From the NCBI RefSeq assembly GCF_053078305.1, contig NZ_CP166879.1: DNA of 64,000 nucleotides; one strand, given 5' to 3'. The notes under the pieces are model-generated. The model was not told the origin of the DNA. It searched no databases and worked only from the letters and a program-made list of their open reading frames with translations. Of the stretch, positions 34,838-37,341 are shown piece by piece (within the stretch, counting starts at the first letter, position 1; each line of letters starts with the position of its first letter). The translations under genes and the position numbers were made by a program.

Positions 34838-35757
34838 CTCTGTAAAAGTTTATTAGTCGCAATCTGTGCGGGTGAAATGAGCATTTTTATTCATTGAATA
34901 CAGGTTGACGCGGATAGCGGTAACAACTTATTACTGTCAGTAAGGCATGGTGGGCCTCTATTCAGGTCAATTTCGTCAATGGACACGCAGGTATGAGCAG
35001 CAGGAAGCATAAAACTGCCAGATGGAACCATAGCTCAAGTCTCGTCCCCGCAGCAGGTTATTTCTGGGGGACAGCAGCCTCCGAGTCAAAAAAATCTCTG
35101 ATGAGCAGATTGCCGTATCAGGGAAATGTATCCAGAAATTGGTGACGCAGTGGCTTCGCTGATCCGTAAAAATGACTATCTCCAGTCGCGTGTTCGGTGT
35201 GTGAGGAGTTGTTAGGGTGCATGAACTGGATTTTTCAGGGAAGCCGCTGAGGCCTGGCAGAATGCAGCCCGGCTGGCCCCCTGTGAAGCATGGCGGGATT
35301 TTGCCCTGAAGAGGGCATCTGCATGCCGGTGTAAGTGCCGATAAAAATAACCCCCGTCGCGGAGCTCCGGGGGATCAGGCTTATATGGCAGATCGTTATT
35401 ATTATAGTGGTGTAAGAAGGAGTTGCCCTGTCTTTCAAACGGACATCACAGAGTTAACATATTTCACATCCCGGGTAAGCCAGCAGGGATAAAAAATGTG
35501 ATGAATTTCAAGAAGCAGGAGGTGACAGTGGCATGCATAACAGTATGGTTATGTCCGGTGAATCTGACAGACAGCCGGGCAGTATTCGCGGCAGGATCGA
35601 GTAGGAGGCGGGATCAGTGGTCGACGGGTTCTTTCATTTTTGGCATTGGCAAAAAATGTTATCAGATACATACCGAATATATTGAAAACCTTGTCTCGAA
35701 TGTTTACCGAGATCGATACCAATAAGCGCAACGTTTTGCATGATGGTACCCTCTAAA

Positions 35758-35796
35758 ATAACCCCCCTGTCAGCGTACCGCTAACAGGGGGGGACC
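35758..35796. other. GC-rich hairpin in decayed, ORF-poor region
   Basis: cccccctgt…acagggggg stem with ~13-nt loop; surrounding 34.84-37.34 kb has only short mutually overlapping ORFs. Confidence 0.4.
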
Positions 35797-37341
35797 ATCT
35801 CATTACATCATATTGCTTCATGGTGCATCAGCGACCACAGGATGCCGCAAAAGCCGAAAAACGGACCAGAGCGCCTGAAATCATTCCTCGCCTCAGTATC
35901 TGTTGCCCATGGAGTGGCCGATAACAGACCATTGTCGGATGAGCCTTACCCCCCTTCCTTCCCGGTGGTATCCGGATGTGCTGCCAGCCTTCTCAGTTAA
36001 CCGATGTTTTCCGGGCTTTTCGCCATGCTGATGCCTGATAACGTATTCCTGGTCGTAAAACCCGTCAATATGCGCCGGGGCATCGACAAAACTGACACAG
36101 TACGTCCGGAAAGAACTTAACGCTGCATGGCACGACAATGCTGCCTTTGTCTTTACCAACAAGGCTCGTTCCCGCATAAAAGTTCTACGCCGGGATAAAC
36201 ATGGCGTATGGCTGCGTCAGGCCTTCACTACTTCACACCGGAAGTCTTCCACCCTGACACGAATATACCGTCCGGGCTCTTTCGCAGGTGCAAACAGTTT
36301 TTCACATTCGGCGAATGTCATTTCTGAATCCTGGTAACGCAACCACTGAACCGGCATATTACCGGGTTTGATTATTGTCGCAGTTATTTTATATCGTTTC
36401 CCCATATCGCCTCTCATCCTGACAACAAAATTACCGGCTGAGCCATCACTCCGGTAAAGCATGCGAAAAAAAGTGAGCGTCTCAGCAATGGCTCATGCGG
36501 TGATTCTGTACGGGCACCGATGGCACCTCAGAATACAACAAAGATATCAGCGCAACATGTCTCTCCCGTTATTTTTCAGAGTTCTTTACCCACCATCTGT
36601 CACATTGTCAACGCCGCAACCTTAACAGTATCCAGGCCAGTACATGCGCAATATCCCATGGAAACACAAACAGAAAGCCGCTGCTTCTTTTCACACGGCA
36701 AAGCGGGTTTTTCGGGCGATGGTTATGGCTGCAGAAGATGGTGTACTGCCGGAAGTCTCCGGGGCAGGAGACAACGGATACGGTAGCTGACCAGTGTTAT
36801 ACAAAGAGCGTCATTGAAGTGGCTGAACACAGTAAGCGATGAGATTGTTTACCTTTCGGTCATGACAAAAATGACTCCTGCAGTGATGGATAAACTTTGA
36901 GCAGGAAAAGTTTTTACGTCTGATTCTGGCGGAACGGGGGGATAAGAATATGAATAATGTGAAGTGAAACATTATTTTTTCTGTACGGGCTGGCTGCAGA
37001 TTTCTTTTTTTTCTGTGTTTTTGTTTTATTTTGTTGATTTTACTTGTTTTGATGATTGTTTTCATATTTCCCCGAATATATTACATTTTTTGTGCAGGAA
37101 TTTAAAATAAGTAATTTTACCTGATATTTTTAAATTAATTCATGTTTATGTAAATATATGAAAATATCACCATCTTTTGATGGTGATAAGGAAGGGTTCT
37201 GGAAAACATATTTCGCATTTAAGTATACAGCGTATTTGACTGAAAATAAATTTATTTTAGCTGAACAGTGATTAACGGGTTTGCATAATTATATGCGCGT
37301 TTTTATATACCTGTAAACAGGTAAAATAAAGGGATTATATT

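What the first reader, a model, noticed from the sequence alone, without database searches (positions are those of the whole stretch)
34840..37340. ~2.5 kb of decayed DNA with only short overlapping ORFs and a GC-rich hairpin
No ORF of 100 codons or more that I can assign; fragments such as the 81-aa ORF 36217-36462 and a strong hairpin at 35758-35796 suggest gene remnants. It separates the ibrAB pair from the adhesin fragment.
Basis: seen in the sequence. Interest (0 to 1): 0.2.

Follow-up and report, generated by a model that had tools for sequence, protein, structure and literature searches.

The report
Patchwork of mobile-element remnants in island
This 2.5-kb stretch of an E. coli genomic island is an ordinary junkyard of broken pieces of insertion sequences, a phage and a plasmid; the hairpin is the conserved end-structure of a dead insertion sequence, and the only intact gene is a small one of unknown function (DUF1187).

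Summary
The longest ORF in window 34840-37340 is 100 aa, which is what shuffled sequence gives (94±22 aa). The hairpin at 35758-35796 is real (z = -4.4) and unique in the window. About two thirds of the region can be assigned to six unrelated sources:
- a 107-bp Stx-phage gene fragment;
- a 371-bp segment that lies downstream of finO in F-like plasmids;
- the 108-bp left end of an IS1111-group insertion sequence, which contains the hairpin;
- IS66 tnpA'/tnpB' stubs;
- an ICE-derived block carrying an intact, conserved 62-aa DUF1187 gene.
- a degenerate internal piece of a second IS110-family transposase.

The remainder is three unassigned spacers (249, 31 and 100 bp) and the AT-rich region upstream of a truncated YadA-type adhesin gene.

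The hairpin plus T-tract sits between the subterminal inverted repeat and the transposase ribosome-binding site. It is conserved, with compensatory changes, in IS4321/IS5075-like relatives. It is terminator-like and is not the bridge/seek RNA, which lies at the other end of such elements. The finding is ordinary. "Decayed DNA" is largely right, except that the DUF1187 gene is intact.

The parts
34840..35088 (.). Unassigned 249-bp spacer directly after the ibrB stop codon; lineage-specific
   Evidence: It matched only NZ_CP148318 and CP061233. Other ibrB-carrying genomes match only the ibrB coding part, at 83-90%. No Pfam or PHROG hit in six frames.
35089..35195 (+). 107-bp internal fragment of a Stx-phage (933W/Sakai-type) gene that lies between the portal and major capsid genes; frameshifted
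   Evidence: 92-94% DNA identity to 194 Stx-phage records and to O157 prophages. tblastn matches aa 141-177 of the 335-aa protein in two frames. PHROG 479, profile positions 135-175 of 333, E = 2e-6. PGAP labels it a partial, frameshifted pseudogene in NZ_CP148318.
35227..35597 (+). 371-bp segment of F-like plasmid DNA from just downstream of finO. It includes the last 38 codons of a 67-aa hypothetical ORF (35228-35341) and that plasmid's own minus-strand terminator-like hairpin (35349-35366).
   Evidence: 95-98% identity to many IncF plasmids. tblastn gives 97% over aa 30-67. The terminator-like site is from the scan; the same sequence is present in the plasmid itself.
35598..35697 (.). Unassigned 100-bp filler between the plasmid piece and the IS stub
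   Evidence: Homology to both neighbours stops exactly at these coordinates. Beyond the four genomes that carry the whole segment, E. coli records matched only the adjoining IS stub.
35698..35805 (-). Left-end stub of an IS1111-group (IS110-family) insertion sequence. It comprises the 7-nt terminal extension TAATGAG, the subterminal inverted repeat ATGGTCCCCCCC, the hairpin, a T-tract, the Shine-Dalgarno AGAGGG, the ATG (35741-35739) and the first 15 codons, MQNVALIGIDLGKHS.
   Evidence: 92-93% identity to about 290 E. coli records annotated "IS110 family (RNA-guided) transposase", and about 75% to IS4321/IS5075. The 15 codons are 100% identical to WP_032334768.1. The full 1.35-kb element matches the window nowhere else.
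35758..35796 (-). The GC-rich hairpin: a 14-bp stem with a 3-nt loop, followed on the minus strand by TTATTTT. It is the conserved left-end stem-loop of the IS stub and is terminator-like.
   Evidence: The position and the hairpin-plus-T-tract design are conserved in distinct relatives. 93.8% of alignment cells pair, against 31-66% when the 3' partners are slid, and 4 of 7 inner-stem pairs show compensatory changes.
35806..36216 (+). IS66-family remnant: tnpA' lacking its N-terminus, with in-frame stops (35823-36035), and tnpB' truncated after about 63 codons (36025-36214)
   Evidence: PGAP pseudogene calls in NZ_CP148318, STEC1590 and SMBL. Pfam TnpB_IS66, profile positions 18-60 of 101, E = 1e-7. 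tblastn gives 47% to TnpA aa 39-109 and 76% to TnpB aa 1-63.
36217..36405 (-). Intact DUF1187 gene (62 aa, MGKRYKIT...EVVKA), the only intact conserved gene in the region
   Evidence: Pfam PF06688, 57.7-62.3 bits (gathering cut-off 20.7), profile positions 1-59 of 61. PGAP annotates the corresponding gene as WP_000520190.1. 12 synonymous and 5 non-synonymous codon differences, 92% aa identity to an ICE copy. The start position agrees with the family's N-termini.
36406..36668 (-). Upstream (promoter-side) DNA of DUF1187, co-inherited with the gene from an ICE or island backbone
   Evidence: 36217-36668 is 81.7% identical to the DUF1187 locus inside an integrating conjugative element in FHI_NMBU_10. 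The block 35806-36615 is 98-99% identical in the listed genomes, e.g. STEC1590; 319 records have their best match in the 95-99% band.
36666..36845 (-). Degenerate internal fragment (about aa 135-209) of a second, 398-aa-type IS110-family transposase. The 48-aa "hypothetical protein" 36644-36790 (+) is antisense to it and is probably a spurious call.
   Evidence: 80-83% DNA identity in two pieces to an IS110 transposase gene on a Salmonella Poona plasmid. tblastn gives 40% identity with a stop and deletions, E = 2.4e-5. No Pfam hit for the 48-aa ORF.
36846..37340 (+). AT-rich (26-32% GC) non-coding region upstream of the truncated YadA-type adhesin ORF, with promoter-like sites just before 37342
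   Evidence: Composition. Promoter-like hexamers at 37262-37289 and 37314-37343. Present only in the four E. coli genomes that also carry the adhesin fragment, plus CP061233. YadA_head hit in the ORF starting at 37342.

Best explanation
The interval is a non-functional mosaic left by successive insertions, truncations and deletions of mobile DNA inside a horizontally acquired E. coli island. It is not one decayed gene.

From left to right it holds:
- a lineage-specific spacer;
- a 107-bp Stx-phage gene fragment;
- a 371-bp F-plasmid post-finO segment;
- a 100-bp filler;
- a 108-bp left-end stub of an IS1111-group insertion sequence (minus strand);
- IS66 tnpA'/tnpB' stubs;
- an ICE-derived block with an intact DUF1187 gene and its upstream DNA (minus strand);
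- a degenerate internal piece of another IS110-family transposase;
- the AT-rich upstream region of a truncated trimeric-autotransporter adhesin gene.

The GC-rich hairpin belongs to the IS1111-type stub. In intact copies of this element (about 1.35 kb, 334-aa DEDD transposase, about 280-bp 3' non-coding region) the left end reads: TAATGAG, a 12-bp subterminal inverted repeat, the hairpin, a T-rich tract, the Shine-Dalgarno sequence, then ATG.

Inferred mechanism in the live element: the stem-loop plus U-tract acts as an intrinsic terminator or attenuator. It would shield the transposase gene from transcription entering from flanking DNA, and it would throttle transcripts from the promoter created when the element circularises (TTGCAA in the right end, a 17-18-nt spacer, then GATAAT across the junction).

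In this window the transposase body, the 3' non-coding guide-RNA region and the right end are all gone, so the hairpin is a fossil. At most it still terminates minus-strand transcription coming from DUF1187, about 420 nt upstream.

Shown: the sequence origins, the boundaries, the conservation of the hairpin and the intactness of DUF1187. Inferred: terminator function, the order of events, and any residual activity.
For: Piecewise homology with sharp boundaries.

PGAP pseudogene annotations in the near-identical genome NZ_CP148318.

The six-frame Pfam scan finds only a partial TnpB_IS66 and a full-length DUF1187.

ORF content equals that of shuffled sequence.

Intact IS copies inserted in nadB and in a zinc-ribbon gene define the element ends, the subterminal repeat ATGGTCACCCCC / GGGGGTGACCAT, and the 7-nt left and 3-nt right extensions. 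These match the published IS1111-group definition (PMC11187229).

The hairpin is stable and non-random. It is scored as a minus-strand terminator. Hairpin plus T-tract is conserved in most of the 14 relatives folded individually, down to 62% protein identity; the 46% relative keeps the stem but not the T-tract. Four inner-stem pairs show compensatory change.

DUF1187 shows a purifying-selection pattern and a family-consistent start.
Against: About 35% of the interval has no identified source: 34840-35088, 35196-35226, 35598-35697 and 36846-37340. A small functional element there cannot be excluded.

Terminator activity of the hairpin has not been measured. In IS4321/IS5075 the equivalent hairpin is weak (z = -0.3), and the most distant relative (L032) lacks the T-tract.

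The flank next to the IS stub (ATATGATG) does not resemble the flank shared by intact copies (CGGGCC). The same IS66 breakpoint (35806) occurs without the IS in the STEC1590-type arrangement, found at 98-99% in the other listed genomes. The history of that junction is therefore unresolved.
Confidence: 0.85

Rival explanations
1. The hairpin is part of a guide RNA (bridge RNA / seekRNA) of the IS110-family element, so the stub retains an RNA-guided recombination component.
For: PGAP names relatives of this element "IS110 family RNA-guided transposase". The hairpin is a conserved structured element inside the IS.
Against: The element has a 12-bp subterminal repeat, a 69-bp left end and a 3' non-coding region of about 280 bp. 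That is the IS1111-group layout, in which the guide RNA lies in the right end, downstream of the transposase (PMC11208160; PMC11187229). The right end and 3' non-coding region are absent from the window. No Rfam family matches above threshold.
Confidence: 0.04
2. The hairpin is the intrinsic terminator of the ibrAB operon, or a host REP/BIME-type extragenic palindrome, and is unrelated to any IS.
For: It lies downstream of ibrB in non-coding DNA and is GC-rich and nearly palindromic.
Against: It lies 920 bp after the ibrB stop codon. On the + strand no T-tract follows it, and the terminator scan calls it only on the minus strand. It occurs once in the window. Its only homologues are left ends of IS110-family elements, where it sits at a fixed distance from the element tip and the transposase ATG.
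Confidence: 0.03
3. The region hides a functional gene or small RNA other than DUF1187. Candidates are the 100-aa ORF 35423-35725, the annotated 48-aa ORF 36644-36790, and a minus-strand transcript bounded by the two terminator-like hairpins (35796 to 35349).
For: PGAP annotates the 48-aa ORF as a protein (WP_001379682.1) in two genomes. Two minus-strand terminator-like hairpins lie 411 bp apart. 35% of the interval is unassigned.
Against: The 100-aa ORF runs across three segments of different origin (plasmid piece, filler, IS stub), has a TTG start, has no family hit, and is not annotated by PGAP. The 48-aa ORF is antisense to an IS110 transposase remnant and has no family hit. The two hairpins come from unrelated sources, and their shared 12-mer is native to both. 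Rfam finds nothing at E < 0.1.
Confidence: 0.07

Closest known systems
IS4321 / IS5075 and ISEc11 (IS1111 group of the IS110 family)
   Same: The stub shares the terminal TAATGAG extension, the ATGGTC... subterminal repeat, the spacing to the ATG and the N-terminal (L)IGIDLGK motif. It has about 75% DNA identity to IS4321/IS5075 left ends. Intact E. coli relatives have the short left end, long right end and repeat architecture described for the group, and can form a junction promoter on circularisation (PMC11187229, PMC11208160).
   Different: Only 108 bp survive here. The subterminal repeat carries one substitution, and 4 nt next to it are deleted. The hairpin is much stronger than in IS4321/IS5075 (-33.8 against -18.3 kcal/mol). 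Intact relatives sit in nadB, a zinc-ribbon gene and IS3 elements rather than in Tn21 inverted repeats, so their target differs.
IS66-family elements (tnpA-tnpB-tnpC)
   Same: Overlapping tnpA/tnpB reading frames with a TnpB_IS66 domain.
   Different: Truncated at both ends, with in-frame stops and no tnpC. It is only about 72% identical in DNA to the other IS66 copy in the same island.
DUF1187 (PF06688) small proteins of enterobacterial islands, ICEs and prophages
   Same: Full-length match, with the conserved W21, F55 and two cysteines. It has the same 60-70-aa size and the same mobile-element context.
   Different: None of note. The function of the family is unknown. The predicted beta-beta-alpha-beta fold (pLDDT 81) has no significant match among solved structures.
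Mosaic "junkyard" segments of E. coli pathogenicity islands
   Same: A dense pile-up of IS fragments and pseudogenes between cargo modules, here ibrAB and an adhesin/type I secretion cluster.
   Different: Unusually heterogeneous for its size: six identifiable sources in 2.5 kb, including F-plasmid and Stx-phage snippets.

Membership tests
IS1111 group of the IS110 family (the stub at 35698-35805) | Subterminal inverted repeats of about 11-13 bp, with a 7-bp terminal extension on the left and 3 bp on the right | tested here: met
   Intact relatives read TAATGAG-ATGGTCACCCCC ... GGGGGTGACCAT-AGA. The window keeps TAATGAG-ATGGTCCCCCCC, 11 of 12 positions. The definition is from PMC11187229.
IS1111 group of the IS110 family (the stub at 35698-35805) | DEDD-type transposase gene | tested here: not met
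   Only the first 15 codons remain, 100% identical to the 334-aa transposase of the STEC299 copy. Homology ends at 35698. It is a remnant, not a functional member.
IS1111 group of the IS110 family (the stub at 35698-35805) | Long 3' non-coding region encoding the seekRNA/bridge RNA, plus the right end | tested here: not met
   Present in intact relatives, about 280 bp. Absent from the whole 64-kb window.
Bridge RNA / seekRNA (the hairpin itself) | Located in the long non-coding end; two loops complementary to target and donor | tested here: not met
   The hairpin lies in the 69-bp left end, a simple 14-bp stem with a 3-nt loop. In IS1111-group elements the guide RNA is in the right end (PMC11208160).
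Intrinsic (rho-independent) terminator (the hairpin, minus strand) | GC-rich stem-loop immediately followed by a U-tract | tested here: met
   14-bp stem, 10 G-C pairs, tail TTATTTTAGA. Most relatives keep a hairpin plus a T-rich tail.
Intrinsic (rho-independent) terminator (the hairpin, minus strand) | Transcripts actually end at the U-tract | not testable with these tools
   Needs Term-seq, 3' RACE or a reporter read-through assay.
IS66 family (35806-36216) | tnpA, tnpB (PF05717) and tnpC genes between terminal inverted repeats | tested here: not met
   There is a partial TnpB_IS66 domain (profile positions 18-60 of 101) and a TnpA fragment with stops, but no tnpC. It is a remnant only. The inverted repeats were not examined.
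DUF1187 (PF06688) | Match to the Pfam model above the gathering score over its full length; uninterrupted ORF | tested here: met
   57.7-62.3 bits against a cut-off of 20.7, profile positions 1-59 of 61, 62-aa ORF with a stop codon.

The most novel reading that the evidence does not exclude
The left-end hairpin plus U-tract, together with an outer pairing between the subterminal repeat (GAUGGU) and the ACCAUC just before the AUG, may be a conserved regulatory module of the IS4321/IS5075 clade of IS1111-group elements. I did not find it described in the two IS110/IS1111 papers I read. It could be a built-in terminator or ribosome-binding-site occluder that gates expression of the RNA-guided transposase. 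It could also be the terminator of the guide RNA when that RNA is transcribed across the circle junction. Separately, three IS110-family remnants lie within 2.6 kb, and one breakpoint (35805/35806) is shared with the STEC1590-type arrangement, which lacks the IS. This might reflect rearrangements catalysed by these recombinases rather than random decay.
Probability: 0.3. Interest if true: 0.35.

Novelty: already known. Interest (0 to 1): 0.1.

Why it matters
It matters little for biology. The result documents how a pathogenicity-island junction is built from scraps of IS elements, a phage and a plasmid.

Its practical value is for annotation:
- DUF1187 should be called as a 62-aa intact gene.
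- The 48-aa "hypothetical protein" is probably spurious.
- Two IS110-family remnants and the phage and plasmid snippets are unannotated in reference genomes.

The side observation of a conserved terminator-like stem-loop in the left end of IS4321/IS5075-like elements could interest people engineering IS110/IS1111 RNA-guided recombinases, because it would affect transposase expression.

Tried and rejected
- Rfam scan of 32000-40000 at E ≤ 1. The only hit was a sub-threshold, biologically irrelevant one (TCV_H5, 24.9 bits against a gathering score of 70) on the hairpin.
- Six-frame Pfam scan and a PHROG scan of the left unassigned part. Nothing appeared beyond the pieces already listed.
- An NCBIfam scan failed because the frames contain stop codons and was not repeated.
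- Dedicated blastn of 34838-35095 and 36660-37345 against plasmids, and of 34760-35100 against E. coli genomes. No source was found for 34840-35088.
- I tested whether the 12-mer AAAATAACCCCC, shared by the two hairpins, marks a recombination junction. It does not: it is native to both the plasmid and the IS, and it is not at a junction.
- I tested whether the IS stub sits in the same kind of site as in a Salmonella plasmid that also has IS66-like DNA beside an IS110 element. The geometry is different there.
- DUF1187 function. Homologue searches, an AlphaFold model (pLDDT 81), a Foldseek search of the PDB and a PDB sequence-profile search gave no informative match. The literature search returned no papers.
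- Partridge & Hall 2003 could not be read and is cited only through later papers.
- I ran no further search on the unassigned spacers. An exact 20-mer search was unlikely to be informative.
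Full report
**Observation.**

The ORF list for 31000-41000 shows that 34840-37340 holds only short, overlapping ORFs.
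- The longest complete ORF is exactly 100 aa (35423-35725, TTG start).
- A shuffle test gives 94±22 aa for the longest ORF, and 30% of shuffles reach 100 aa.
- The median 2.5-kb window across the whole 64-kb sequence has a longest ORF of 282 aa. In ORF content the interval therefore behaves like non-coding DNA.

The hairpin is real.
- Its arms are 35762-35775 and 35779-35792, 14 nt each, 13 of 14 complementary as DNA, with a 3-nt loop. As minus-strand RNA all 14 positions pair, one as G-U.
- The 71-nt context folds at -33.8 kcal/mol against -20.3±3.1 for shuffles (z = -4.4).
- It occurs once in the window, with none expected by chance.

- On the left are ibrA (PAPS_reduct + DUF3440) and ibrB.
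- On the right is an ORF with a YadA_head repeat.

**Where the DNA comes from.**

The whole interval is present in only four of 5,426 complete E. coli genomes. NZ_CP148318 covers all of it at 99.7%; the other three cover 81% of it, from 35318 onward, at 98.4-98.6%. It is also present in one oversized "plasmid" record, CP061233.

Local blastn and tblastn against the fetched loci give sharp boundaries.

1. 34840-35088: no homologue other than those near-identical genomes.

2. 35089-35195: 92-94% identical to a gene of Stx-converting phages (933W L0115 / VT2-Sakai type) that lies between the portal and major capsid genes.
   - It corresponds to aa 141-177 of a 335-aa protein, split over two frames.
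   - It matches PHROG 479.

3. 35227-35597: 95-98% identical to the DNA just downstream of finO in many F-like plasmids.
   - It includes the last 38 codons of a 67-aa hypothetical ORF.
   - It also includes that plasmid's own terminator-like hairpin at 35349-35366.

4. 35598-35697: unassigned.

5. 35698-35805, minus strand: the left end of an IS110-family element.

6. 35806-36216: IS66 tnpA' (aa 39-109, with in-frame stops) and tnpB' (aa 1-63).
   - Pfam TnpB_IS66 covers profile positions 18-60 of 101.
   - PGAP calls both as pseudogenes.

7. 36217-36668, minus strand: 81.7% identical to the DNA carrying a DUF1187 gene inside an integrating conjugative element.
   - The sub-block 35806-36615 recurs at 98-99% in the listed genomes, e.g. 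STEC1590. In one search, 319 records have their best match in the 95-99% band.

8. 36666-36845, minus strand: a degenerate internal fragment (aa 135-209) of a different, 398-aa IS110-family transposase.
   - tblastn gives 40% identity, E = 2.4e-5.
   - DNA identity is 80-83% to a copy on a Salmonella Poona plasmid.

9. 36846-37340: 26-32% GC, with promoter-like sites just before the adhesin ORF.

About 65% of the interval is thus assigned to six unrelated sources. The three unassigned spacers (249, 31 and 100 bp) and the 495-bp AT-rich adhesin upstream region make up the rest.

**The hairpin.**

Aligning the minus strand with IS copies shows that homology begins at TAATGAG (35805) and ends after the fifteenth codon of the transposase (35698).

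Two intact copies define an element of about 1.35 kb. One is inserted in nadB of strain STEC299, the other in a zinc-ribbon gene of AUSMDU00014361. The element has:
- a 334-aa transposase;
- a 3' non-coding region of about 280 bp;
- a perfect 12-bp subterminal inverted repeat (ATGGTCACCCCC / GGGGGTGACCAT);
- terminal extensions of 7 nt on the left and 3 nt on the right.

This is the published signature of the IS1111 group (PMC11187229). In that group the left end is short, the right end is long, and the bridge/seek RNA is encoded in the right end (PMC11208160).

The hairpin lies between the left subterminal repeat and the Shine-Dalgarno sequence and ATG. It is followed by TTATTTT, and the consensus scan calls it as a minus-strand terminator.

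Joining the right and left ends of the intact element would create TTGCAA, a 17-18-nt spacer, then GATAAT. This is my reading of the sequences. It is consistent with the junction promoter documented for ISEc11 (PMC11187229).

I collected 22 further relatives with 46-82% protein identity from viral contigs.
- 14 distinct left ends were folded individually; 16 were aligned.
- Most of the folded left ends have a stem-loop at the same place, followed by a T-rich tract.
- The stems differ in sequence: GAGCG/CGCT, CTGCCA/TGGCAG, CCCCA/TGGGG, CTCTAAG/CTTAGAG.
- On the alignment, 93.8% of cells pair, against 31-66% when the 3' partners are slid.
- Four of the seven inner-stem pairs show compensatory changes.

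The hairpin is therefore a conserved structural module of this IS clade.
- The most economical reading is an intrinsic terminator or attenuator protecting or limiting transposase expression. This function is inferred, not shown.
- In IS4321/IS5075 the equivalent structure is weak (z = -0.3).
- The most distant relative lacks the T-tract.

In the window, the transposase body, the 3' non-coding region and the right end are all absent. The subterminal repeat has one substitution and 4 adjacent nt are deleted. The stub is dead. It is the first minus-strand terminator-like site downstream of DUF1187, so it may still end that transcript. This is untested.

**The one intact gene.**

- Pfam PF06688 scores 57.7-62.3 bits against a cut-off of 20.7, over profile positions 1-59 of 61.
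- PGAP annotates the corresponding gene as WP_000520190.1.
- Against the ICE copy there are 12 synonymous and 5 non-synonymous codon differences, mostly at third positions.
- An exhaustive search finds 58 cluster representatives of 50-100 aa. Most begin at the equivalent of MYKIT, which supports the 62-aa start. W21, F55 and two cysteines are conserved.
- Relatives lie in a prophage contig next to a NinX-family gene, and in a chromosomal locus beside fimbrial genes.
- The AlphaFold model (pLDDT 81, beta-beta-alpha-beta) has no significant match among solved structures.
- No paper mentions the family. Its function remains unknown.

**Rivals.**

- *Guide RNA.* This is contradicted by the IS1111-type layout and by the absence of the right end.
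- *ibrAB terminator or REP-like palindrome.* This is contradicted by strand, by distance, by the hairpin being unique in the window, and by its fixed position inside IS copies elsewhere.
- *A hidden gene or small RNA.* This cannot be excluded for the unassigned segments, but the candidates are weak. The 100-aa ORF is chimeric across three sources. The 48-aa annotated ORF is antisense to a transposase remnant. Rfam finds nothing.

**Unresolved.**

- The flank next to the IS tip (ATATGATG) does not resemble the CGGGCC flank of intact copies.
- The same IS66 breakpoint at 35806 occurs without the IS in the STEC1590-type arrangement, where an IS3-like remnant lies nearby.
- I could not reconstruct the order of events.

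**Verdict.**

This is an ordinary mosaic of mobile-element debris. Two corrections apply: the 81-aa "fragment" is an intact conserved small gene, and the hairpin is an inherited IS end-structure rather than a sign of decay. Interest is low.

Noticed in passing
window 32989-34214 (indel near 33393): ibrA is split into two ORFs (142 aa and 266 aa). Relative to NZ_CP148318, where the gene is intact (401 aa), the window lacks 4 bp (GTTT) at about 33393. ibrA is therefore frameshifted in this strain, or this is a sequencing error.
   Followed up: partly
window 37783-38344, minus strand: There are further remnants of the 398-aa-type IS110-family transposase: aa 1-88 at 38282-38023 and aa 362-394 at 37881-37783. 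The middle of the gene is missing. The fragments abut and apparently truncate the YadA-type adhesin ORF, whose last roughly 45 codons read through the IS remnant.
   Followed up: partly
L010:2545-2613, L011:2545-2613, and L016-L037 around position 530-600: In IS4321/IS5075-clade elements the GAUGGU of the left subterminal repeat can pair with ACCAUC/GCCAUC/ACUAUC immediately before the AUG. This encloses the hairpin and the Shine-Dalgarno sequence. The pairing is kept through G-U alternatives but shows no double compensatory change. It may be ribosome-binding-site occlusion or a third transposase-binding motif.
   Followed up: partly
L010:1255-2615 and L011:1257-2615 (intact IS copies): Intact copies share the flank CGGGCC next to the left tip and TT next to the right tip. 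They sit in nadB, a zinc-ribbon gene or IS3-family elements. This suggests a guide-RNA-defined target different from the Tn21 inverted repeats used by IS4321/IS5075.
   Followed up: no
window 35762 and 36466, compared with NZ_CP148318: The C-run forming the base of the hairpin differs by one C between the window and NZ_CP148318 (homopolymer length variation). A second 1-nt indel lies at 36466.
   Followed up: no
window 30813-32376: A larger IS66-family copy (tnpB and tnpC-like ORFs) lies upstream of ibrAB. It is only about 72% identical in DNA to the IS66 stub at 35954-36217, so two different IS66-family elements entered this island.
   Followed up: no
window 34199-34837: This ibrB is a divergent allele. 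Typical E. coli ibrB genes match its 3' end at only 83-87%, and only one of the 5,426 complete E. coli genomes carries the same variant together with its downstream spacer.
   Followed up: no
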